Source of the DNA: a virus
Lineage: Duplodnaviria; Caudoviricetes
Reading direction: 5' to 3' (one strand)
Length of the DNA stretch: 64,000 nt
Virus record (IMG/VR): IMGVR_UViG_3300017585_000267
Coordinates: 41,239-105,238 of that record
Below the pieces are notes generated by a model, which worked only from the letters and a program-made list of their open reading frames with translations, made no database searches and was not told the origin of the DNA. Position numbers and translations under genes: made by a program. Shown here piece by piece: positions 4,397-15,303 of the stretch; the stretch's first letter is position 1, and every line of letters starts with the position of its first letter.

Positions 4397-4467
4397 CAGT
4401 CGTCCCCTCCTGACAGACAGAACAGGGCGACGATGAATACGATCATTACGTGTGACCAGATAATCAT
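4396..4467 (-). CDS. 23-aa hydrophobic mini-protein
   Basis: MIIWSHVMIVFIVALFCLSGGDD*, TGATG overlap with the next gene, A-rich leader. Confidence 0.4.
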   Translation of the reverse strand: MIIWSHVMIVFIVALFCLSGGDD

Positions 4468-4733
4468 AGCTCCTTAAGTTTAAAAGGCATCGGCAGGCGT
4501 CCTGGAAGAAAGTAAGGGAAATGGCAAAAATAAAGCCCAAGACGTATGCCGACACCGAAAGTCCTTTAAAAAGTGCCGAAGGATGGCCTATGGAAAACCC
4601 CTGAAAAGAACCAGAAACGGGGCGTACAGCCAGCCACCCTTCGGCACGACATCCATGTAAATTCAATATGCAAAGATAGGAAACAATTCCCATTATTGCC
4701 AAACAAAACCAAGGTTCAGCGGAGCGCCGGCCC

Positions 4734-5442: not shown

Positions 5443-5514
5443 CAATGGGCAGCGGAATCGAACCACTGTCTCAAGGTTGAAGACCTTGCGTACTGACCGC
5501 TATACCAGCCCACC
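5443..5514 (-). tRNA. Atypical tRNA, most like Glu(TTC) with C33
   Basis: Acceptor GGTGGGC/GCCCATT, D-stem GTAT/GTAC, anticodon arm CAAGG-TCTTCAA-CCTTG, 4-nt variable loop, G discriminator. Confidence 0.7.
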
Positions 5515-5701
5515 TTATAAAGCCTGGCGATCCTCACGGACAGCCAGGCCATTCCATAAACCGTAAAAAAAGTTGATGAACAAAAACTAAGCTATGAATA
5601 ACCGCACTATGTTCCATAGCAGTCCTTGCAAAGCTACAAAATGAGGATGACAACCACAAAGGCCTTAACGCCATCCTTATGTACGTTAAAGGCCTGTGTA
5701 C

Positions 5702-5845
5702 CTATAGCCTCGAGATCAGTCCCTCAAGCTCGTCGACGTGCATAGACAGACGTTCCTTCATGCCGCGCAGCTGCTTCAACAGGTATGCGCACCTGTCCTT
5801 CTCGGCGATGAGTCTCTTCGCCTCGTTGAATGTACTGTAGTCCAT
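5702..5845 (-). CDS. Hypothetical 47-aa protein
   Basis: MDYSTFNEAKRLIAEKDRCAYLLKQLR...; A-rich leader; similar to 2670-2942. Confidence 0.55.
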   Translation of the reverse strand: MDYSTFNEAKRLIAEKDRCAYLLKQLRGMKERLSMHVDELEGLISRL

Positions 5846-5853
5846 AATTCTTT

Positions 5854-6177
5854 TTAATTTTCTCGTTCAGCCAATCGTTCGGCGACTTCTTCAAGCTGGT
5901 CTGCTATGAGGCCACCGAGGTTCTCCAAATCCATCAAGTGCTTCTTGACGTCATCCTGTAGCCCCCGAAGCTTCCCGATGTCATCCATTACGACGGGAAT
6001 GCCATTCGAGATGTCCGGAATGCTTCCGTCGGCCATTCCACGAAGCCTGAAGATGGTTCGGTCCAGCCTTTCACGGATGTTCCAGATGCAGTCAAGCAAG
6101 GAATCCTCATATACCTGAAGTTCCTTGAGGTCGCACCCAACAAGGTACAGCCTGTCCAAAGGCGAAAGGCCGCTCAT
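5854..6177 (-). CDS. Hypothetical coiled-coil protein
   Basis: ATGA overlap with the ligase stop. Confidence 0.6.
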   Translation of the reverse strand: MSGLSPLDRLYLVGCDLKELQVYEDSLLDCIWNIRERLDRTIFRLRGMADGSIPDISNGIPVVMDDIGKLRGLQDDVKKHLMDLENLGGLIADQLEEVAERLAEREN

Positions 6178-7637
6178 ATCGCACCCTCCCACATCTCGGT
6201 CCCTACAATCCCCCTGTCCATCTCCGAGGCCTCATGGGTCATGAACCTTACGCCCTTGTATTTGAAGGCTTCGGGAACCGGGTCATCCACAATCCTGAGG
6301 ACGACTCCCTCCCTGGGAACCTTGTAGTCGCACATGGGCTCATTTTCCTCAAGGTGGAACATTCCCTTGAGTTCCCCAAAGGCCCTTTCCGGGAAGGATT
6401 CGTCTTGATTGATGTCTGGAAACAGGGCTTCACAGGGGCCAGTCCACAGGATTTCAATGGGCATCAGGATTGGGTGGGTTCCCATGTTCCCAACCGTCCA
6501 CTCCCTCACCTCGTCCACGCCCCACTCCCTCTTGGTGCCGTCGGAACTTTCAGTGGTTATCCTATAAGGCATCAGCCTGCACTCGCCCCTCCTGCAACCG
6601 TAGTCATATCCCTGCTGTATGAAGGTGCCTGTGCCGGGGAGGTAGCCTACTATCTCGCCATAGAGGGACATCCCCTCCGGGATTATATCCTTCAGCTTCT
6701 CCGCCACATGGCTCCAAACGTCCACGTCATAGTAGCTTTTGGCGCCCTTGCAGACCCACCTGTTCTTTATGACGGTGCGCGAGGACCAGATGTACCTGTA
6801 ATCAACGATGAAGTCCTCCCTGCGCAATGAGGGGAACGCCCTTGAAAGGAAGTTGCCGATGCACCTCACCAAGGAGAACCCCTTGGGAATGCGGCACATC
6901 ACGTTGGCCAGGATGACACTTGTGCCATGGAGCTTCGTAGTGATCACCAAATTGTTGTCAGGCCTGAGCACCCTTCCGAAGTTCTTCCCGAGGGGCTGCG
7001 TGTCGTAGTGGAACATGAACTCCCCGGGGATTATGGTGTCGAACCTTTTCAGCCTGTTGTTCCTTTTATCCTTAGGAGCCTTGAAGGACTTCTCCACCTT
7101 ATAAGGCAGGTACGCCTGCACGAAGAGCCTCCCGTCCACGGTGTCGAAGTCCTCCCCTACGTGTGACGTAAAGTCATAGCCCTCGAGCTTGGGGCAATAG
7201 CGCACAAGCTCCCTGGTGGTGAAGAGGCAGCCGAAGGACTGTACCCCACGGAGCTTCACCGTCCTCACCCTGCAACTCTTGGTGAAGTAACCGGTCATTC
7301 CCCGAAGCCTCCCCTCAAGTTCCCTTCTATCCCCCTCTTCCTTGGATTTCCGCATCGCCTCCTCGACCTCAAGCCACTCGCGGTAGTTGGCGTTCCTCTC
7401 GGGCTTGTCGAAGAGGTTGTTCACCCTGAGGAATTCATGGGACAGCTGGCACTCGTTCGATGCGTAGAGCATCACCTCCCCCTCCTTCACGCGGTCCTTC
7501 CTGACCACGGTAGGCTGGCCAGCTATGTCCACCACCCCAAGGAAGTCGGATCCTTCGATTGGGGTCACCTTGGGTATCCTCACCAAGGTGCAGCAGTACT
7601 CATGCGAGCCTGCGCTTGAAAAGCTTATAAGTTCCAT
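6174..7637 (-). CDS. ATP-dependent RNA ligase (Rnl5/DRB0094-like)
   Basis: Motif I TKLHGTS, WSSRT, LYGEIVG, REGVVLR, FKYK; N-terminal PIEGSDFL module. Confidence 0.85.
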   Translation of the reverse strand: MELISFSSAGSHEYCCTLVRIPKVTPIEGSDFLGVVDIAGQPTVVRKDRVKEGEVMLYASNECQLSHEFLRVNNLFDKPERNANYREWLEVEEAMRKSKEEGDRRELEGRLRGMTGYFTKSCRVRTVKLRGVQSFGCLFTTRELVRYCPKLEGYDFTSHVGEDFDTVDGRLFVQAYLPYKVEKSFKAPKDKRNNRLKRFDTIIPGEFMFHYDTQPLGKNFGRVLRPDNNLVITTKLHGTSVILANVMCRIPKGFSLVRCIGNFLSRAFPSLRREDFIVDYRYIWSSRTVIKNRWVCKGAKSYYDVDVWSHVAEKLKDIIPEGMSLYGEIVGYLPGTGTFIQQGYDYGCRRGECRLMPYRITTESSDGTKREWGVDEVREWTVGNMGTHPILMPIEILWTGPCEALFPDINQDESFPERAFGELKGMFHLEENEPMCDYKVPREGVVLRIVDDPVPEAFKYKGVRFMTHEASEMDRGIVGTEMWEGAI

Positions 7638-7808
7638 ATGGCAACAGTTGTCGTTTATGCCGTGACTATAAAAAATAAAAAAATAAAAAACAAAAAACAA
7701 GGGGACACGGCAAGCCGCATCCCCCAGAAAGCGTCGACCAGTTTGTGGAAAACAAACAGGACGTTTAAAATTTTTAAAGTTAAACAGTATTCACCGGCCG
7801 ACGCCTTG

Positions 7809-7877
7809 AAGGGACGGCAGGGGTCGAACCTGCGTCTCCCGAAAACCGGGGCTCTCTCCCAATTGAGCTACGTCCCT
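7809..7877 (-). ncRNA. tRNA-like element with truncated anticodon arm
   Basis: Perfect acceptor AGGGACG/CGTCCCT, D arm GCTC/GAGC, T arm GCAGG-TTCGACC-CCTGC, but the anticodon arm is only CCCGGTTTTCGGG. Confidence 0.75.
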
Positions 7878-7884
7878 TGGCAGA

Positions 7885-8166
7885 CTATGCCTGCACTCGA
7901 ACGATGTCCTCCTCACCGGGCCTCTCAAGCGTTACGAGCTGAGCCTTCGAGAGGTCAACCTTGTCCCCCACCCCAAGCTCGGAATCCCTGGAGAGCGGGA
8001 TATAGGTCTGTCCGCCCGCCTTCATTATGAAGCATACGCTGTTCCCATACTGGGAAGCCACCACTTCCGCGCTCTTCACCGAAGAGATCTCCTCGGCGTC
8101 AAATGACCGCAATGACTTCACGCTCCAGTTTCCGGCGTAGCTCTTGAGGGTCGAAAAGATGTTCAT
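7885..8166 (-). CDS. 93-aa protein, paralog 1 of 3
   Basis: MNIFSTLKSYAGNW...VKSAEVVASQYG...MKAGGQTYIPLS; clearly aligns with 11954-12235 and 12509-12790. Confidence 0.85.
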   Translation of the reverse strand: MNIFSTLKSYAGNWSVKSLRSFDAEEISSVKSAEVVASQYGNSVCFIMKAGGQTYIPLSRDSELGVGDKVDLSKAQLVTLERPGEEDIVRVQA

Positions 8167-8638
8167 AAGTTTCATCGCCAATGCCCTTTGGACTTGTTTT
8201 GGTACCTGGCTCACCTGTTGTTGTTGTTAAATGTAGTACTGAGGAATACTTCCGGCTGGCGCCGTACCCCAAATATCGGGGAAGTGTAATGGGCAGGTGT
8301 CGCTCTATGCGGCTCCCATAAATCCACGTTTCACTGGAATACAGTTCCCCGGGCCTTCCACATGACGGCTGTATGGAACATAAAACGGCGGCCATGCCTC
8401 AAATGGAGTACTTCTTCGACAATGCCGACGTCCGTAAAGCCAATGACTGAATGGGCGCATTTTTCCTAAAAGGGAAGCACAAAAATGCCGGATGCGGGCC
8501 TGGGGTTCCCCATGAATGCCAGGGTACAGGCAGTAAAGTCGGGAAGAAATGGGTCGGGGGAAGGGATTATGGGGAAGAGCCGGGGATGAAGGGGATGGAA
8601 GACACTGTGAAACAATTTGCAAGTTTAAAAAAAAGTGT

Positions 8639-8646
8639 TATATTTG
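8639..8646 (+). promoter_or_regulatory. Bacteroidota sigma-A promoter -7 box
   Basis: TATATTTG with TTTG about 20 nt upstream; no credible ORF downstream. Confidence 0.75.
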
Positions 8647-8650
8647 CGGT

Positions 8651-9105
8651 TGCCTTAGACTACTAGTGAAAGTCTACACACCCCCCGAAGGTATGCGACA
8701 CGACAAGTAAGGGGAGAAGGTGGCTGGTAAGGGAGGCAGATGTGACTGATACAGAATACGTTACAGAAACAAGCTGCAAACATATCCCTGAGATATTGCT
8801 GCCAAGGGCAAAAAGGTTCTTTGATATAAGCATGGTCCGTTGCTGATGCACTCTAGAGACGCTGAGGGAAAAACGGGATCGAGATAAAGACCATTAGGTG
8901 TAATAACCCGCCCATGTGAAGTTCAAGGAATAAGCTGAAACCCAATGGGTTCAGAAAGGGAGACGGTTCGTCCCCCTGGGTATACAGGTATCCTCTCTTC
9001 AGAGAGGTTCTTAAAAAACAATCTGAATCAACAAGCAACAGTTTCAACATTCTCCCCCGGTGATAACACCTACCCAAGAAGAAGAGAGGATGAGCCGGGG
9101 GGCCT
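8651..9105 (+). ncRNA. Candidate large structured ncRNA A
   Basis: Follows a promoter, no plausible ORF; many helices (TGCCTT/GAGGCA, TAGACT/AGTCTA, ATGGTC/GACCAT, CCTCTC/GAGAGG, CCCCCGG/CCGGGGG). Confidence 0.5.
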
Positions 9106-9230
9106 ATTGTCATAACCCTGGTGAAACGTCCTTCAAGGTAGGTTTCAATCTCGAGACTAACTCACTGATACTCAATAAATTATAACTACTATTAGTGATA
9201 GTTGAAAGTTAATATGGTACTTTCGGCTTA

Positions 9231-9385
9231 ACGAATGTGCCATATTGCCATTTACTAATGTGGCATATTCCTTAAGGTGAATACCCCATGTAGGTTGTTT
9301 AAGCATTTTTCAATACCCCGACTCACGAATGTGCCATACTCGTCACGTCGACTTTGCCACTTAGGAGTTCACGAATATGGCACTT
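9231..9385. repeat. Four iteron-like direct repeats (ACGAATGTGCCATA consensus) next to an AT-rich tract
   Basis: Copies near 9231, 9253, 9325 and 9371. Confidence 0.6.
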
Positions 9386-9489
9386 AAGTCGATGACGCCT
9401 AATTTTGGCCAAAATCATCCGATTTTTATCGACATAAAGGATTCACTTAGGAATTCCCCCTCCCCTGGATGGATTCCATGCCGCATATA

Positions 9490-10097
9490 CCTATTATATA
9501 TAGGAGTCCCCGGGCAGGGACATCATACGGCTGGGGCGGGAGCCCAGGGTGGTGGCGAATAATCCCCCCACAGGGTTTCGTCCTCCATGTCGCCCATACC
9601 TATTATATATATAGGCATGAAATTCCATCTACTCCTATTATATATATAGGAGTCCCGGTTACGGCCAAACCCAAGCTACACCTATTATATATATAGGAGT
9701 CACAGGCCGGCCACTCCTATTATATATAGGTACAGGTCCCAGGTTATACCTATAATATATATAGGTGCGGTGTCGTGGCTATACCTATAATATATATAGG
9801 AGTGTCGGCATCCATGTCCCGGTCCATATACTTATATTATATATATAGGAGTGGGACTGCCACTACACCTATTATATATGGGGCCACAGCCCTGCCCACT
9901 CTTCATGGTCATGGAGTCCAGGCCATACCTATTATATATAGGGATTCCTGGCCAGGCGATACACCTATTATATATAGGAGTGCCGGGCTTCCCATACCTA
10001 TAATATATATATAGGTATCCAGGCCATGGTCGAACCCGGACTACACCTATTATATATATAGGTGTGTCAGGTCGGCCATACCTATTATATATATAGG
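9490..10097. repeat. Array of 14 palindromic CCTAT(W)(AT)nAGG repeats with unique spacers, mostly 18 or 30 nt
   Basis: Repeat starts 9490, 9599, 9634, 9681, 9716, 9749, 9784, 9831, 9868, 9928, 9964, 9997, 10046, 10081. Confidence 0.95.
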
Positions 10098-10164
10098 CAT
10101 GGGACCATGCCGTCGCCTGTAGTGGAAAATCAAAAAAAGACTTGCAGGATTGAAGAATCCTTCC

Positions 10165-10172
10165 TATATTTG
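10165..10172 (+). promoter_or_regulatory. Bacteroidota sigma-A promoter -7 box
   Basis: TATATTTG with TTG at about 10142. Confidence 0.75.
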
Positions 10173-10177
10173 CGGCG

Positions 10178-10511
10178 ACTCTGGGAGGAGCTGCATCCTC
10201 AGCCGTGCCGAGCCACCCCCTTACGGAAAGGGTCTAACAGGGCTGGTACAGACATCGGGTCGAGAATGGGAGCCGTCCCGATACGGAAACATATCCCTGC
10301 CTCGTAGCCAACTGCCCCGATACCAGAGAAACCGCAGGTTGCCATGACCCCAGCTCGACACCATTGTGCAGCTTATGGAAAAATGGTGTCCACGAACAAA
10401 CGTGGAGGCAATGCCAGAACCCCAGGCGGGAAACGCAACCGAGCAATGGCGATGAGACTTTGACGAGGAGCCAGGGTCTCCAGGCAGGTTTCAGGCGATT
10501 TATTTTTTTTT
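10178..10511 (+). ncRNA. Candidate structured ncRNA B
   Basis: Promoter upstream, T-run at end; helices CTCTGG/CCAGAG, GAGGA/TCCTC, ATCGGG/CCCGAT, GACACCATT/AATGGTGTC, CCACG/CGTGG, GAGACTTTG/CAGGGTCTC. Confidence 0.55.
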
Positions 10512-11426
10512 CGACCTGAGCGTGCCAGGGGGCTCCTTTGCGAAAGAGAGTTCTATTCACTGACGTTCATAGAAACTCTTGCCTTTCTTGATTCAGGAGC
10601 CCTTCCCCCTCACTCCAGCTCCACACTCCTGGGTACGCAGTTCATAAGTACACAGTTCAGTCAATCAGCCAATCAGTTGGTTGGTTCAGTTGAAGGAACC
10701 CAGGCTGTGGGGAATCAGGGTTCACACAACGGCTCTCCTGGGCAGGTGTGGCTGTGTCGACTCCCCGGGGGGAGGACCCCCCGGCCCCCCCCGGAAGCGA
10801 GTGTGGGTGAATAGACATCTTGTCCGCTACTTGGGTACTGCTGAGGTACTGGTTCGCTTGGATGCACCACTTGAAGGGACCAAGGCTGTATGGTGGCGGG
10901 GTTCGCCCACTCCTTCCTCCCTGAGGACCCAAGGCTGAGGGCAGTCGCTTCCTGAGTGGACTCCTGGCTAAGGGTACTATGTTCACTTGGCCCTCTTGGG
11001 ATGGTCCAGTGGACACCAACCAAGTGGCCACCCCTTGGAAGGGATGTCGCCTTAAGGAACCTCCTTTAAAGGGACTTCCGGTCATAAGGAAGTGATCCCA
11101 TGAGGGCTTGGTTGGTTCTGTCCCTCCCCCGGTTAAGGCATATTCCCAGGTGCCACGCCCCTTGAGGGGACATCCTTAAGGAACTCCCTTGAATGAATCC
11201 TGAAGGGAGCCCTGTGAATGAAACCCCCAGGGAACCTCTTGAATGGACTTCACTTGAAGCAGGCCGCTTCATTCACTCCTTGAGGCCACTATGGGGACTG
11301 TCCTTTGGGAGCCTGCATTATTCCCCACCCCTGCCCCATGCCCCCTCCCTGTGAAGCAGTCTTTGCCGTCACGACCCTTGCAAGTCTGGCCGATGTTCAC
11401 TAACTTTGTACAAAACCTAATGGCAC

Positions 11427-11858
11427 ATGCGAACTAAGGAAAGATTCTGCTTCATGTACCCAGACGGGATGTCGAGGCTCCTCAGGGGACGCCTGCTCGA
11501 CCCGGCAGCCAAGGTCCTCCTGGGGCTCACGGGATACCTCGGGTACAACACCAACGTGGTGAAGCTCGACCCCATCAGGAGGACCTCGCTGGCTAACTCA
11601 TGCAGGATACCCAGGACCGCTCTTGACGACGTGCTGGCCGCCCTTGTGGGGGAGGGGGTGCTGGGGATGCTGGATGGGGACACCTACGTCATGGACAAGT
11701 CCCTCTTCTGGAAGGGGGACCTCAACTCAAGGGACGCTCTGAAGATGAAGGACCTCGGGAGGACCCTTGCAAGCTCACTCGAAGGAGCCTCCGTCCCGGT
11801 GGACCTTCCTGACACGGGAGGCTACTGGCAGCCGGATTCCTCGTTTGAACTCCGGTGA
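11427..11858 (+). CDS. RepL-like winged-HTH protein
   Basis: NTNVVKL..RRTSLA...ALDDVLAALVGEGVL...YVMDKSLFWKGD pattern; own promoter TAACTTTG at 11401. Confidence 0.7.
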   Translation: MRTKERFCFMYPDGMSRLLRGRLLDPAAKVLLGLTGYLGYNTNVVKLDPIRRTSLANSCRIPRTALDDVLAALVGEGVLGMLDGDTYVMDKSLFWKGDLNSRDALKMKDLGRTLASSLEGASVPVDLPDTGGYWQPDSSFELR

Positions 11859-11953
11859 AAAAAAATAAGGGAGCGACCCCATAAGGGGCCACTCCCACTG
11901 AAAGAAAAAAAACAAGGGACGCAGCCCGCATTGGACTGCATCCCCTGTACTTT

Positions 11954-12235
11954 TTAGGCCTCGACCCTCACGATGTCATCGCTGCCATCCCTGTGGAGGG
12001 TAATGAGCCTCGCCTTGGTGAGGTCCACGGAATCCCCTACGCCCAGGCTGCTCTGGTTGGAAAGCGGAATGTAGGTCTGCCCACCCGCCTTCATGAAGAA
12101 GCACACGGAGCTGCCGTACTGCGAGGCGACCACCTCCGCCGACTTGACGGCATTGATTTCCTCAGCCTCGAATGCACGGGATCCAGTCACGTTCCAGTTG
12201 CCAGCGTAGGTCCGCAAAGAAGAAAAGATGTTCAT
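11954..12235 (-). CDS. 93-aa protein, paralog 2 of 3
   Basis: Aligns with paralogs; followed by hairpin plus T-run terminators (11860-11945). Confidence 0.85.
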   Translation of the reverse strand: MNIFSSLRTYAGNWNVTGSRAFEAEEINAVKSAEVVASQYGSSVCFFMKAGGQTYIPLSNQSSLGVGDSVDLTKARLITLHRDGSDDIVRVEA

Positions 12236-12508
12236 GATGTTTGTGATTTAAGTTGTTAATGATGAATGTTGACTACGGGAACCCTGTGTTCCCGCAAAAA
12301 CCCGGGAAGTGTAATGGGGTGGGGGTTCCCTATGGGACGCCGCCTGTGGAATGCCTGCCGACGGCGCTCCAACATGCAGACGTCGCTTCAGCCAGCCTTC
12401 CCTGTCCCACAAAAGGACGCCGCTCCCACTTGTCGTCGTTGCCGCCAGGCTTTAAAAAAATAAGGGGAAGAGGCCCGAAGGCCCCTCCCCCATTGCATTG
12501 AGACTGGC

Positions 12509-12790
12509 TTATGCCTCGACCCTCAGAATGTCCGCCTCCCCGTCCTTGGAGAGCACGACCAGCTTGGCCTTTGTGAGGTCTATGGACTGACCCACGGCTG
12601 CGGAGGCATCCCTGCTCATCGGTATGAACTTGGAGCCTCCCGCCTTCATCATGAAGCAGCAGGACGTCCCGTATTGGGACGCCACCACCTCGGCGGACTT
12701 CACTGCGTCTATCTCCTCTGCTGAGAAGCCCCTCGTTTCCTTTACGTTCCAGGATGCGGCATAGGTCTTGAGTGAATTGAAGATGTTCAT
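12509..12790 (-). CDS. 93-aa protein, paralog 3 of 3
   Basis: Aligns with paralogs; terminator at about 12453-12490. Confidence 0.85.
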   Translation of the reverse strand: MNIFNSLKTYAASWNVKETRGFSAEEIDAVKSAEVVASQYGTSCCFMMKAGGSKFIPMSRDASAAVGQSIDLTKAKLVVLSKDGEADILRVEA

Positions 12791-12929
12791 AATGTTTGAA
12801 ACCCACTTACAACTGTGTCTCCACAGAGCCTTAAAGGGTACTGGCTTTTGGTTTACGGAATAATGTTTTGGGGAATACCTTATGTAAGGACAGCCTGGGC
12901 CTTCCCCTGGACCCAGGCCATCCCGAAAG

Positions 12930-13187
12930 CTACTTCAGGCCAAGCAGGCCGTCGTAAAGTTCACCGTCACAGGAGACCCTCATGATTTCAGGGACCCTGG
13001 ACACCGCAAAGAACGCATAGCTGGAGCCATGGTACGTGCCATTCCTCCTGGCCTCGTAAATCCTTTGCTTCCTGAGGCACTCGGCCTTGGCCTTCTGCCT
13101 TAGGGCAATCCGTTCATCGGTGAACTTGGCGAGGTTAATCCTAACCCCGTCCTTTCGCTCCACCTGGAGCAGATAGAACCATCTCAT
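12930..13187 (-). CDS. Hypothetical protein
   Basis: ORF in minus-strand small-gene cluster. Confidence 0.55.
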   Translation of the reverse strand: MRWFYLLQVERKDGVRINLAKFTDERIALRQKAKAECLRKQRIYEARRNGTYHGSSYAFFAVSRVPEIMRVSCDGELYDGLLGLK

Positions 13188-13289
13188 TTCATTTCATGAT
13201 TAAGGTTATACATAGAGTTATTATCACAAGCAAGAGCGCAACAATCTGCGCCCTTGCCTCCTTGAGTTTCCTGTAGTCCGACTTCATGC

Positions 13290-13634
13290 CTACACGAACT
13301 TTGCGTTGTCAGGCATCCTGTCCTTCCAGCAGTCGGGTATCTCGCCCTGGAACCACAGGTTGTCACAGGCTACCTCATGTCCGTCATTGAACTTGATGAG
13401 GTTCGTGGCTCCGCAGAGCCCGCTTGGGTATCCCTCGGCATGGGGCTTGAGGACGTAATGGGAGCCATCTATAATGGCGTACCCGTACCGTCCCCTCTCC
13501 TTGTCCCATTTCATCTGGTTCCTCCAGTGGTTGCAGGAGAAGCACATCCGGTGTTTCCGGAGTTCCCTGGCGCAGCTCTCGCGCCATTCTGCGGTGTTTT
13601 CGGTGGCACCGCACACCTTGCATTTGAAAATCAT
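13290..13634 (-). CDS. Hypothetical Cys-rich (CxxC) protein
   Basis: CKVC, CFSC, NLWFQGEIP; A-rich leader. Confidence 0.7.
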   Translation of the reverse strand: MIFKCKVCGATENTAEWRESCARELRKHRMCFSCNHWRNQMKWDKERGRYGYAIIDGSHYVLKPHAEGYPSGLCGATNLIKFNDGHEVACDNLWFQGEIPDCWKDRMPDNAKFV

Positions 13635-13779
13635 AGCTTTTTAGTTTAATGGTTTATGGTAATGTGATACTCCCTGCCCCACTTGGGCAGGATGTATTTC
13701 CTGAAGTTGTCAAGGGATTCCCTTGAGCGGAAGCGCAGGTCTCTCACCCAATGGGAACCCCTCCACAGCGACACTGTAA

Positions 13780-14019
13780 TCATTCCTTGGCTTTCTTCGG
13801 GAACGTGCCCCTGTACACCTCACGCGTACAGAAGCCGAAGAACCAGGCCAGCATGCCCATGAGTACGGCCATGCATAGTCCCAGGGACGGGTTTCCTCCC
13901 AGCATCCCCGTGACCAGAAACCTCCAGGCCAACGCCATGAAGTTCAACGTCATGAGGCCGAGGCACATGATGACTACAATGCCAAAGGTCTTTTTGGTGA
14001 ATCTGACAATCCTTTTCAT
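13780..14019 (-). CDS. Membrane protein
   Basis: Two hydrophobic segments; start at MKRIVRF. Confidence 0.6.
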   Translation of the reverse strand: MKRIVRFTKKTFGIVVIMCLGLMTLNFMALAWRFLVTGMLGGNPSLGLCMAVLMGMLAWFFGFCTREVYRGTFPKKAKE

Positions 14020-14124
14020 CTTTTTACGGTTTAATGGTTTATGGTTTGACTTTGTTTTACTTCTTCGACTGTCCGTAGTCAAGAAGCGGCATCAGGATGA
14101 TGCAGAGCAGTATTATCCAGAACA

Positions 14125-14448
14125 TCAGTATGTCCTCCCAAGTTCAGTGTTTATGTAATCCATTACGGAGTCCCTCGTCCACCTGAGCGCATGGCCGAAC
14201 AGCAATGCCGCGTCGAGGTCCTCCTTCCTCATGTGATGAACCTGGCAGTCATCTTCAGAGGCCGCGTTTATGGAGCTCGCCGACGATACCATCAGCATTC
14301 CCCTATAGCCGTCTGAGGGCTTCATCAAGAAGTCCCCGAACTCATTGGTGTACTCTGTTTGTGCGCCTTCCATGCGTTCAGTCCATGTGTTGAAGTCCAT
14401 GGTGTCAGTGGCGACTGCGAAAGTGCCGATTAATTGATCGATGTTCAT
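14125..14448 (-). CDS. Hypothetical protein
   Basis: A-rich leader, 107 aa. Confidence 0.65.
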   Translation of the reverse strand: MNIDQLIGTFAVATDTMDFNTWTERMEGAQTEYTNEFGDFLMKPSDGYRGMLMVSSASSINAASEDDCQVHHMRKEDLDAALLFGHALRWTRDSVMDYINTELGRTY

Positions 14449-14494
14449 AACTTTTTTTGGTTTAAATTGTTTAACTTTGGTTTAATATTAAGGG

Positions 14495-14851
14495 TTAACC
14501 TTCAATCAGGAGAATCAGCTGATGATGCTCACTATCCACATCTAGGATGATAAGCCTCCCGTCCTCAAGGTGAACCAGCAACGTCGGGATGCACAATTCA
14601 CCCAAATCCCACTGATCGAAACAGTCGAAGTCCGGGTTCCCTTCCGGGGTCAGCATATCTTCCCCATCCTCCCCATAGAACCCGCTGATGTGTTCCTGCG
14701 CCCGTTCCTTGATGTAGGCTACCAAAGACGCAGCGATGCGCCCATCGGGGAATGCAAGTACTGGTGATTCCCCGTTGGGGTACGTGAATGTGTACCTTGT
14801 GGTCTCCAAGATGGAGATTACCTCTGCAAAGCTAATAATCTTTGCTTTCAT
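14495..14851 (-). CDS. Hypothetical acidic protein
   Basis: 118-aa ORF with conserved leader motif. Confidence 0.65.
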   Translation of the reverse strand: MKAKIISFAEVISILETTRYTFTYPNGESPVLAFPDGRIAASLVAYIKERAQEHISGFYGEDGEDMLTPEGNPDFDCFDQWDLGELCIPTLLVHLEDGRLIILDVDSEHHQLILLIEG

Positions 14852-15303
14852 AATTCATCCCTTTCCACCACACTCGAGCTGAAAGGGTAACGGCTTTAAT
14901 TGTTATTAATATTTAGCTGTCTTTCGTTTCCAGGCACAGCTATTCCTGTTTTACAAGGAATGACGGAACACACCATGTTGCGATGTATAGTCTGTCATTC
15001 CTCCAGGTAACTGTATCCAACGCTACTCCGTAATCGTATGAACACAGTACCTGGAAGTCCTCAAGGCTAATGTAGCCTTGTACCCTTATGGAGCTTTCTC
15101 CATTTCTGTCAAGCCTCACTTGGGTGTCCACGTGCTCAATGGCATTGAGTACCTCCCGTTACTTTATGCCTTTAACCATGTCGGTGAGCTCCGACAGCGT
15201 GAGGTCTCTATGATGCCTCACGTCCTTTATTTCTTTCATTGTACTTCATTTGTTCGTTTTCAACGAGTTCCTGATACTCATCGAACCGGTCTTCTTCAGT
15301 ATT

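What the first reader, a model, noticed from the sequence alone, without database searches (positions are those of the whole stretch)
8639..10511. Two promoter-driven structured ncRNA candidates share a 13-nt motif and flank the array
Seen: both start just after TTG...TATATTTGCGG promoters (8639, 10165), lack ORFs and are dense in helices. Both contain AAACATATCCCTG (8778-8790, 10287-10299) at a similar distance from the promoter (139 and 122 nt). RNA A ends in a G-tract stem just upstream of the AT-rich/iteron zone, reminiscent of a ColE1 RNAII-type primer RNA (inference). I cannot assign either to a known family by eye.
Basis: partly seen in the sequence, partly recalled or inferred. Interest (0 to 1): 0.78.

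Follow-up and report, generated by a model that had tools for sequence, protein, structure and literature searches.

The report
Conserved noncoding RNA in crAss-like phage
In the gene-free control region of an uncultured crAss-like phage, one of two promoter-driven stretches (A) is a non-coding element shared with two other phage lineages and probably a small RNA gene of unknown function, while the other (B) and the motif said to link them have no support.

Summary
The window is the right 64 kb of a 105-kb crAss-like phage (Crassvirales capsid, 55% GC). The promoters, the exact 13-mer and the lack of ORFs are all as described. Both promoters fit the Bacteroidota type (TTG, 19-20 nt, TAnnTTTG) that also precedes many genes of this phage.

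"Dense in helices" is not supported: the folding energies are ordinary (z -0.6 and -0.95), and no Rfam family matches.

RNA A (about 8650-9015) has real relatives. Three co-linear blocks match a promoter-driven, ORF-less stretch in one IMG/VR crAss-like lineage (each z above 5). An 85-nt core (8856-8936) also matches a second lineage. The core reads GAGAUAAA, a hairpin whose sequence varies, then AAUAACC(C/G)(C/G)CCC. No reading frame is conserved. Covariation could not be shown with three sequences.

RNA B has no relative anywhere. A and B are not alike beyond the promoter and the 13-mer, and that 13-mer falls in a gap of the A-homolog alignment. The T-run taken as B's end is the loop of a 62-nt hairpin.

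The closest known case is the pair of abundant, unexplained long non-coding RNAs of crAss-like phage phi14:2. They are not sequence homologs, and one of them looks like a tmRNA. The ColE1-like primer idea remains speculative. An earlier scan note (e1-3432099) reports a comparable ncRNA gene in another crAss-like phage.

The parts
8616..8646 (+). Promoter PA: TTTG/TTGCAAG, then TATATTTG 19 nt downstream (Bacteroidota -33/-7 type)
   Evidence: The consensus is cited from PMC10309648. A similar 39-nt promoter precedes sigma-factor genes in two related contigs.
8650..9015 (+). RNA A unit, about 360 nt and ORF-less. It runs from the predicted start to the conserved 3' block (hairpin CCTCTC/GAGAGG, then TTCTTAAAAAAC).
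   Evidence: No coding signal. Three co-linear blocks are shared with the G001 homolog. The ends are inferred, not mapped.
8737..8830 (+). 5' block conserved with G001; it ends in GGCAAAAAGGTTCTTTGATATAAG
   Evidence: local score 18 against 10.0 in shuffles, z 5.2, 0 of 200
8856..8936 (+). Conserved core: TGAGGGAAA..GAGATAAA, a hairpin (ACC/GGT), then AATAACCCGCCC..GAAGTTCAAGG
   Evidence: z 5.4 against G001 and 5.3 against L051. The hairpin is present with a different sequence in all three lineages, joint chance about 0.002.
9000..9025 (+). 3' block conserved with G001 (AGAGAGGTTCTTAAAAAACAATCTG); possible 3' end of the RNA
   Evidence: z 5.5, 0 of 200
8778..8790 (+). 13-mer copy 1. On the minus strand it carries TATGTTTG with TTG 18 nt upstream, an antisense promoter-like site.
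   Evidence: It falls in a 13-nt gap of the alignment with G001.
9053..9102 (+). G/C stem CTCCCCCGG...CCGGGGGG, downstream of the conserved unit and upstream of the iterons
   Evidence: dG -19.6, z -0.97. Not conserved in the relatives.
10141..10172 (+). Promoter PB: CTTGCAGG, then TATATTTG 20 nt downstream
   Evidence: A near-identical -33 element (TTGCAGG) heads the RNA A homolog in G001.
10176..10473 (+). RNA B body: ORF-less, specific to this phage, no detectable relative
10287..10299 (+). 13-mer copy 2. The minus-strand reading TATGTTTC with TTG 15 nt upstream is a poor promoter match.
10474..10535 (+). 62-nt imperfect hairpin whose loop is the T-run 10503-10511
   Evidence: dG -36.3, z -2.67, 2 of 200 shuffles

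Best explanation
The region lies in the 3.2-kb gene-free control zone of a crAss-like phage. That zone sits between the leftward replication genes and the rightward structural genes. Two host-type (Bacteroidota sigma-A) promoters fire rightward into ORF-less DNA on either side of the iteron and palindrome zone.

The first unit, RNA A (about 8650-9015, roughly 360 nt), is most likely a stand-alone non-coding RNA gene made by the host RNA polymerase. It belongs to a small, uncatalogued family found so far in three crAss-like lineages. Its conserved part is mainly primary sequence: GAGAUAAA, a short hairpin of variable sequence, then AAUAACC(C/G)(C/G)CCC. I therefore infer that it works through exposed motifs that bind a protein or pair with another nucleic acid, and not through a large stable fold.

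The second unit, RNA B, is a transcript or leader specific to this phage, with no evidence of a conserved RNA function. A and B are not paralogs.

Shown: the promoter consensus, the absence of coding signal, the conservation of A and the lack of conservation of B. Inferred: that A is transcribed, its ends, and its mode of action.
For: Phage identity and layout.

Promoters: TTG-N19/20-TAnnTTTG at both sites, and the same type upstream of many of the phage's genes. The consensus is taken from PMC10309648.

Non-coding. All three frames carry stops around the core in the window and in L051, and G001 has stops in every frame within the stretch examined. Its only open frame across the core is a 52-aa ORF that the other two lack. 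The indels between homologs are not multiples of three.

Conservation of A: the local alignment with G001 (portal 72% identical) gives z 5.4, with separate 5' and 3' blocks at z 5.2 and 5.5. The alignment with the 29%-GC lineage L051 gives z 5.3.

Context: in all three lineages the core lies 230-340 nt downstream of a TAnnTTTG promoter on the same strand. In the window and in L051 that DNA has no sense-strand ORF of 30 aa or more. G001 carries short, non-conserved sense-strand frames, including the 52-aa ORF across its core.

Hairpin: one lies between the two conserved motifs in all three, each with a different sequence and a spacing of 13-18 nt. The joint chance is about 0.002.

Precedent: crAss-like phage phi14:2 transcribes two long intergenic regions at very high levels, and the authors call them long non-coding RNAs of unknown function (bioRxiv 10.1101/2020.03.07.982082).

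RNA neighbours: in relatives the same genome zone holds RNA genes, namely tRNA arrays, and in G033 a tmRNA about 2.8 kb from the A homolog.
Against: There is no direct evidence of transcription. Only three distinct homologs exist, so covariation cannot be tested. RNAalifold on the MAFFT alignment predicts no pairs. A pairwise alifold of the window against G001 gives z -2.3 with a single compensatory pair, fewer than in shuffled columns. The cores fold no better than shuffles.

G001 and L051 are not detectably similar to each other (z -0.4); the window sequence links them. The family is absent from 46 other related phage records and from GenBank phages. Because the region is syntenic, conserved orientation alone does not separate an RNA from a DNA-level site.
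Confidence: 0.5

Rival explanations
1. Origin transcript. PA, and perhaps PB, exist to transcribe into or beside the replication origin. The RNA would open the AT-rich iteron zone or form an R-loop that primes leading-strand synthesis, as at ColE1 (RNA II), the phage T7 primary origin or T4 oriF/oriG. The 13-mer would then mark antisense promoters that make short counter-transcripts against the 5' part of each unit, in the manner of ColE1 RNA I.
For: PA points at the AT-rich zone, which carries ACGAATGTGCCATA iterons about 490-580 nt downstream. A G/C stem lies just before that zone. RNA A is purine-rich (58.5% purines, GC skew +0.14). Read on the minus strand, the 13-mer at 8778 gives TTG-N18-TATGTTTG about 120 nt inside the unit, and the second copy sits about 105 nt inside B. 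That would explain why the same word lies at a similar distance from both promoters. In L051 the homolog is also followed by AT-rich DNA.
Against: In G001 the homolog is followed by a small ORF, and the single palindrome lies upstream of its promoter. No antisense TAnnTTTG box exists in G001 or L051, and the second box in the window is off-consensus (TATGTTTC, spacing 15). The 13-mer is missing from the G001 homolog. Iterons imply an initiator-dependent origin, unlike ColE1. The conserved 3' block suggests the unit ends near 9015, before the G/C stem. The cumulative GC-skew minimum lies near 16-18 kb, not here. That this zone is the origin is itself only inferred.
Confidence: 0.2
2. DNA-level control region. 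The conserved blocks would be binding sites for phage or host proteins (initiator, repressor, nucleoid protein) in a regulatory zone, and the promoters would be incidental or would drive distant genes. No functional RNA would be involved.
For: Conservation lies in primary sequence, with no thermodynamic or covariation signal. The whole 8.2-11.4 kb zone is full of repeats, iterons and palindromes. A core-like word recurs at 9558 inside the array. Synteny alone explains the conserved orientation.
Against: The spacing between the two conserved motifs varies from 13 to 18 nt. The spacer always forms a hairpin, each time with a different sequence. That pattern suits a single strand better than a bipartite duplex site. 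A strong consensus promoter sits directly upstream in all three lineages, with no conserved gene to express.
Confidence: 0.2
3. Long 5' leaders or tiny-protein mRNAs. The units would express short ORFs, for example 8945-9115 (56 aa) or 10344-10463 (39 aa, basic), or would serve as leaders of downstream genes.
For: Short ORFs exist. I read the 39-aa frame directly from the sequence.
Against: None of these ORFs has a positive coding score. The frames are not conserved among the three homologs. What follows differs in each lineage: iterons, a small ORF, or a tRNA. The next plus-strand gene (11427) has its own promoter.
Confidence: 0.1

Closest known systems
The two abundant long non-coding RNAs of crAss-like Cellulophaga phage phi14:2, from the g004-g005 and g005-g006 intergenic regions (Drobysheva et al., bioRxiv 10.1101/2020.03.07.982082)
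   Same: The phage order is the same (Crassvirales). Both have two adjacent long ORF-less regions transcribed in one direction. The first region in phi14:2 also starts just after a TAnnTTTG box (NC_021806 position 2929). The function is stated to be unknown.
   Different: There is no sequence similarity to RNA A or B (z 0.7 or less; the only hit of model R1 lies inside a CDS). The second phi14:2 region is recognisable as a tmRNA, and this phage has none. Transcription is measured in phi14:2 and only inferred here.
ColE1 RNA II primer with its RNA I antisense regulator
   Same: A promoter lies some 500 nt upstream of a presumed origin and the transcript is non-coding. A possible antisense promoter lies about 120 nt inside the unit.
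   Different: Iterons are present, so the origin is probably initiator-dependent. The conserved unit seems to end before the origin zone. The arrangement relative to origin-like repeats is not kept in the relatives. No RNase H site or persistent-hybrid element could be tested.
Transcription-primed phage origins: the T7 primary origin (promoters 1.1A and 1.1B plus an AT-rich region) and T4 oriF/oriG (a promoter plus a DNA unwinding element)
   Same: A promoter or promoters are directed at an AT-rich region in a lytic phage that carries its own helicase genes.
   Different: In those phages the promoter lies within tens of bases of the unwinding element and the RNA needs no conserved sequence. 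Here the gap is about 490 nt and the RNA body is the conserved part. This comparison rests on textbook knowledge and was not tested here.
Stable RNAs of unknown function in the phage T4 tRNA gene cluster (species 1 and 2 RNAs)
   Same: Phage-encoded stable non-coding RNAs sit among tRNA genes. In L051 the A homolog lies upstream of a tRNA, and in relatives the zone is a tRNA array.
   Different: No homology was tested or is expected. This is an analogy recalled from the literature.

Membership tests
Bacteroidota sigma-A promoter | -7 box TAnnTTTG | tested here: met
   TATATTTG at 8639 and at 10165. Consensus as cited in PMC10309648.
Bacteroidota sigma-A promoter | -33 element TTTG/TTG about 19 nt upstream of the -7 box | tested here: met
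   TTG 19 nt upstream at PA and 20 nt upstream at PB. The same layout is seen at other promoters of this phage.
Any Rfam 15 family (ROOL, GOLLD, group I/II introns, tmRNA, RNase P, 5S and others) | Covariance-model match | tested here: not met
   Nothing at gathering score in the window except 3 tRNAs. Over 8200-11900, only chance microRNA, snoRNA and lncRNA hits appear at E up to 10. Single-family searches of the whole genome at E up to 10 found nothing for RF00010, RF00001 or RF00023. ARAGORN finds no tmRNA.
ColE1-type RNA II primer | Non-coding transcript starting about 0.5 kb upstream of the origin and reading into it | tested here: inconclusive
   PA lies 490-580 nt upstream of the AT-rich iteron zone. 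The origin is not mapped, and the conserved unit appears to end near 9015.
ColE1-type RNA II primer | Antisense RNA I made from a promoter about 110 nt inside the unit | tested here: inconclusive
   A good minus-strand promoter-like site lies at 8815-8777. The one in unit B is poor, and the homologs have none.
ColE1-type RNA II primer | Initiation independent of an element-encoded initiator (no iterons) | tested here: not met
   ACGAATGTGCCATA-type iterons at 9231, 9254 and 9325.
ColE1-type RNA II primer | Persistent RNA-DNA hybrid and RNase H cleavage at the origin | not testable with these tools
   This needs biochemistry.
phi14:2 long non-coding RNAs | Sequence or model homology | tested here: not met
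phi14:2 long non-coding RNAs | High, persistent transcription of a long intergenic region during infection | not testable with these tools
   No sequencing run could be listed for this phage.
Proposed RNA A family (this report) | GAGATAAA, a 13-18-nt hairpin spacer, then AATAACCSSCCC, lying 230-340 nt after a TAnnTTTG promoter in DNA with no conserved ORF | tested here: met
   Met by the window, by G001/G051 and by G032/G033. G001 has a non-conserved 52-aa ORF across its core. RNA B does not meet it.

The most novel reading that the evidence does not exclude
RNA A, together with a counter-transcript from the antisense promoter embedded in the 13-mer, forms a ColE1-like primer and antisense copy-control module at the replication origin of a crAss-like phage. 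A second such module (B) sits on the other side of the palindrome array. This would be the first RNA-primed, antisense-regulated origin described in Crassvirales.
Probability: 0.07. Interest if true: 0.8.

Novelty: new member of a known kind. Interest (0 to 1): 0.42.

Why it matters
crAss-like phages are among the most abundant phages known, yet how they start replication and what their non-coding transcripts do are open questions. The only transcriptome of a crAss-like phage that I found in the searched literature, for phi14:2, showed two very abundant non-coding RNAs with no assigned function.

A promoter-driven non-coding element whose sequence is conserved across lineages spanning 29% to 55% GC gives that question a defined target. 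The target is a short motif pair and a hairpin that can be mutated, probed or used as bait.

The practical value is limited because the host is unknown and the family is small. Showing that the second candidate and the linking motif are unsupported also saves effort.

Tried and rejected
- Rfam searches: gathering and E-value scans, plus single-family searches for RNase P, 5S and tmRNA. The RNase P and 5S searches followed resemblances I recalled from memory (AGAUGAAU..ACAGAACCCGGC, GAAGUUAAGCCCGCC). None matched.
- Alternative genetic codes: no convincing gene opens.
- Reverse transcriptase nearby (retron- or DRT-type ncRNA): the genome has none.
- blastn and nhmmer of the whole non-coding zone against 80 portal-related IMG/VR loci: nothing. 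The true homolog lay just outside those loci and was found through the flanking 93-aa gene family.
- GenBank phages and PLSDB plasmids: no match.
- RNA ligase neighbours: the nearest relatives (64-65% identity) are not syntenic.
- The 143-aa ORF at 11427-11858: an orphan, with no RepL or other family.
- IMG/VR and JGI metagenome pattern scans for the core: only the known lineages plus chance hits in coding DNA.
- Promoter-plus-13-mer pattern in IMG/VR: none.
- Pattern and sequence-only model R1 over 50 related records: nothing new.
- Antisense target of the core within the phage: none.
- Sequencing runs: none was listed and no RNA holder was listed, so expression could not be examined.
- Structure-aware alignment (mafft-qinsi) was not available.
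- Yutin et al. 2021 (PMC7886860) does not discuss non-coding regions; my recollection that it does was wrong.
Full report
**Context.** The window is bases 41239-105238 of a 105,238-bp IMG/VR virus record. It encodes a Crassvirales major capsid protein (PF23898, E 1e-202), a crAss muzzle protein and a P22-like portal. On the other strand it encodes DnaB-like and DEAD-box helicases and an RNA ligase. It is therefore a crAss-like phage, with an unusually high GC content (about 55%).

The finding lies in a zone with no credible genes. With a 3-periodic Markov model trained on 36 long ORFs of this genome, no ORF of 30 aa or more between 8215 and 11426 scores above 4 bits. The flanking small genes (7885-8214, 11427-11858, 11954-12235, 12509-12790) score 22-32 bits. 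Reassigning TGA, TAG or TAA does not open a convincing gene. A second, independently assembled JGI contig is 100% identical over 5454-15063.

**The observation.** The promoters are better described as Bacteroidota sigma-A promoters. They have a -7 box TAnnTTTG and TTG/TTTG about 19-20 nt upstream (consensus as cited in PMC10309648). The same type sits in front of many genes of this phage, including the portal operon. A 39-nt relative of PA precedes sigma-factor genes in two distantly related contigs. The promoters are therefore credible but not special.

'Dense in helices' fails. MFE z-scores are -0.61 for A and -0.95 for B.

Apart from promoter and 13-mer, A and B share nothing. With the promoters excluded the best local alignment is the 13-mer itself, and 0 of 300 shuffles reach its score. 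Another scoring scheme gives z 1.9, with 8 of 100 shuffles as good. The 13-mer match is real but isolated, and it was selected post hoc.

The T-run at 10503-10511, which the finding uses as the end of RNA B, is the loop of a 62-nt imperfect hairpin at 10474-10535 (dG -36.3, z -2.67). It is not the tail of a terminator. The G/C stem at 9053-9102 exists.

**Known families.** Rfam gives only three tRNAs in the window at gathering score, and only chance hits over 8200-11900 at E up to 10. Two resemblances that I recalled from memory, to the conserved regions of RNase P RNA and to 5S rRNA, were tested with single-family searches of the whole genome at E up to 10. Both failed, as did tmRNA (ARAGORN). 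The genome has no reverse transcriptase.

**Relatives of RNA A.** Eighty IMG/VR loci with portals 58-72% identical showed no nucleotide similarity to the zone. The three paralogous 93-aa genes that bracket the zone have homologs in a few relatives. This led to the syntenic interval of record G001 (portal 72% identical, 44-48% GC).

In G001, between two 93-aa genes, a promoter (TTGCAGG, 20 nt, TATATTTG) is followed by about 430 nt that carry no conserved ORF and share three co-linear blocks with RNA A:
- a 5' block ending in GGCAAAAA.G.TCTT.GATATAAG (z 5.2, 0 of 200 shuffles);
- a core (z 5.4, 0 of 300 shuffles);
- a 3' block AGA.AG.TT.TTAAAAA.CAAT.TG (z 5.5, 0 of 200 shuffles).

A second lineage (G032/G033, 29% GC, portal 60% identical) shares the 85-nt core with the window (z 5.3). 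There too the core lies about 230 nt after TAnnTTTG promoters in ORF-less DNA at the strand switch, and it is followed by AT-rich DNA and a tRNA. G001 and G032/G033 are not detectably similar to each other; the window sequence links them.

The core reads (T)GAGG.AAA ... GAGATAAA, then a 13-18-nt spacer, then AATAACC(C/G)(C/G)CCC ... AGT..AAG. In each lineage the spacer forms a hairpin with a different sequence: ACC/GGT, GCTT/AAGC and CTAC/GTAG. The joint chance from shuffled spacers is about 0.002.

No reading frame is conserved across the core. All three frames have stops around it in the window and in L051. G001's only open frame there is a 52-aa ORF that the others lack. The indels between homologs are not multiples of three.

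Further searches found no more members. These were two IMG/VR pattern scans with different anchor sets, one JGI metagenome scan, a looser IMG/VR scan filtered with an HMM, a pattern search and a sequence-only covariance model over 50 related records, and blastn against GenBank phages. The family has three distinct sequences, or five records.

**Is RNA A structured?** The evidence is thin:
- RNAalifold on the three-way MAFFT alignment predicts no pairs.
- A pairwise alifold of the window against G001 gives z -2.3 with one compensatory pair, fewer than in column shuffles.
- The isolated cores fold no better than shuffles.
- Partition-function partners of the C-rich motif differ between lineages.
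- In the window and in G001 the C-rich motif can pair with an upstream G-rich run, enclosing the hairpin. L051 does not show this at the same place.

What is established is sequence conservation plus one small recurrent hairpin.

**The 13-mer.** In the best local alignment of the 5' blocks, the window's 13-mer falls exactly in a 13-nt gap relative to G001. It is therefore not part of what is conserved.

Read on the minus strand, it contains TATGTTT. At 8784 this gives TTG-N18-TATGTTTG, a good promoter match pointing back toward PA. At 10293 it gives TTG-N15-TATGTTTC, a poor match. This could explain why the same word lies at a similar distance inside both units, as antisense promoters in the geometry of ColE1 RNA I. 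The homologs have no such box, and nothing could be tested. I keep it as the low-probability novel reading.

**RNA B.** It has no similarity to RNA A, to the A homologs, to phi14:2, or to anything in four related records. Its folding energy is ordinary. It has no coding signal. It is followed by the long hairpin and by 0.9 kb of GC-rich ORF-less DNA that also lacks relatives. PB is a credible promoter, but nothing beyond that supports an RNA B gene.

**Literature.** In crAss-like phage phi14:2, RNA-seq showed that two long intergenic regions are transcribed rightward at higher levels than most genes. They are present from the earliest time point and do not decline. The authors call them long non-coding RNAs of undetermined function (bioRxiv 10.1101/2020.03.07.982082). 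This is the closest precedent.

I fetched that region (NC_021806 2905-4601). It has no similarity to RNA A or B. Its second part is recognisable as a tmRNA: ARAGORN gives the tag GSSVQKLAMVA, and Rfam RF00023 gives 46 bits, E 1.4e-16, one bit under gathering. G033 also carries a tmRNA about 2.8 kb from its RNA A homolog. In other relatives the equivalent ORF-free zone is an array of 20 or more tRNA genes. This part of crAss-like genomes is therefore a habitual site for RNA genes, which fits RNA A being one.

**Mechanism and odds.**
- Most likely (0.5): RNA A is a stand-alone ncRNA gene transcribed by the host polymerase, acting through its conserved exposed motifs. RNA B is a non-conserved transcript.
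- Origin-activating or primer transcript (0.2): this fits the window's layout, but not G001, and it does not fit the presence of iterons.
- Purely DNA-level regulatory element (0.2).
- Small-ORF mRNA or leader (0.1).

No transcript evidence could be obtained.

**Novelty.** RNA A is a new, small family within a known kind: phage-encoded ncRNAs of unknown function, already seen in Crassvirales. Interest is moderate.

I did not test that claim, and the two are not shown to be related.

Noticed in passing
L119 (NC_021806, phage phi14:2) 4031-4500: The second of the two 'long non-coding RNA' regions reported for phi14:2 is recognisable as a tmRNA. ARAGORN gives the tag peptide GSSVQKLAMVA. Rfam RF00023 gives 46 bits, E 1.4e-16, one bit below gathering. 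The preprint describes the function of these RNAs as undetermined.
   Followed up: partly
G033:C1:67694-68085 (L130): A clear tmRNA gene (67.2 bits, over the cut-off) lies in the crAss-like record that carries an RNA A homolog, about 2.8 kb away on the other strand. The window's own phage has none.
   Followed up: no
L046 348-4704; L068 1406-4638: In related crAss-like phages the ORF-free zone upstream of the portal is an array of about 25 tRNA genes. This phage has only three tRNAs.
   Followed up: no
window 7885-8214, 11954-12235, 12509-12790 (all minus strand): Three paralogous genes of about 93 aa, with no Pfam or PHROG family, bracket the non-coding zone. Homologs (52-67% identity) bracket the syntenic interval in G001 and occur in G002/G003.
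   Followed up: partly
window 9480-10100; L085 about 4465-4511; L086 9688-9709: The AT-core palindrome (CCTATTATATATATAGG type), present about 15 times here, occurs as a single related copy in two relatives. The array is therefore a lineage-specific amplification. Untested idea: cruciform or hairpin sites for the virion RNA polymerase, as in phage N4.
   Followed up: partly
window 7809-7877 (minus strand): Rfam finds a third tRNA (45.9 bits) that ARAGORN does not.
   Followed up: no
window 11401-11858: A 143-aa ORF with its own TTGCAAG..TAACTTTG promoter is an orphan. Its only match among 5.8 billion proteins is itself, and it has no RepL or other family.
   Followed up: yes
window 8480-8610: A purine-rich stretch with six runs of 4-5 G and repeats such as GGGGATGAAGGGGATGGAAG lies just upstream of PA. 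It could be protein-binding sites or G-quadruplex-prone DNA.
   Followed up: no
window 10536-11400: About 0.9 kb of GC-rich DNA has no coding signal and no relatives. It contains recurring words (CCTTAAGGAAC twice, CCAAGGCTG-like three times) and long C and G runs at 10763-10792.
   Followed up: partly
window 8267-8316 and 12292-12341: A shared leader with GGGAAGTGTAATGGG lies upstream of two of the 93-aa genes. On the minus strand it ends in ..TTTGGGG or ..TTTGCGG, so it may be a distinct promoter type.
   Followed up: no
L082 8687-8725; L083 8350-8382: A 33-39-nt sequence 79-85% identical to promoter PA sits directly upstream of Sigma70_r2-domain genes in the two contigs with the closest RNA ligase.
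   Followed up: no
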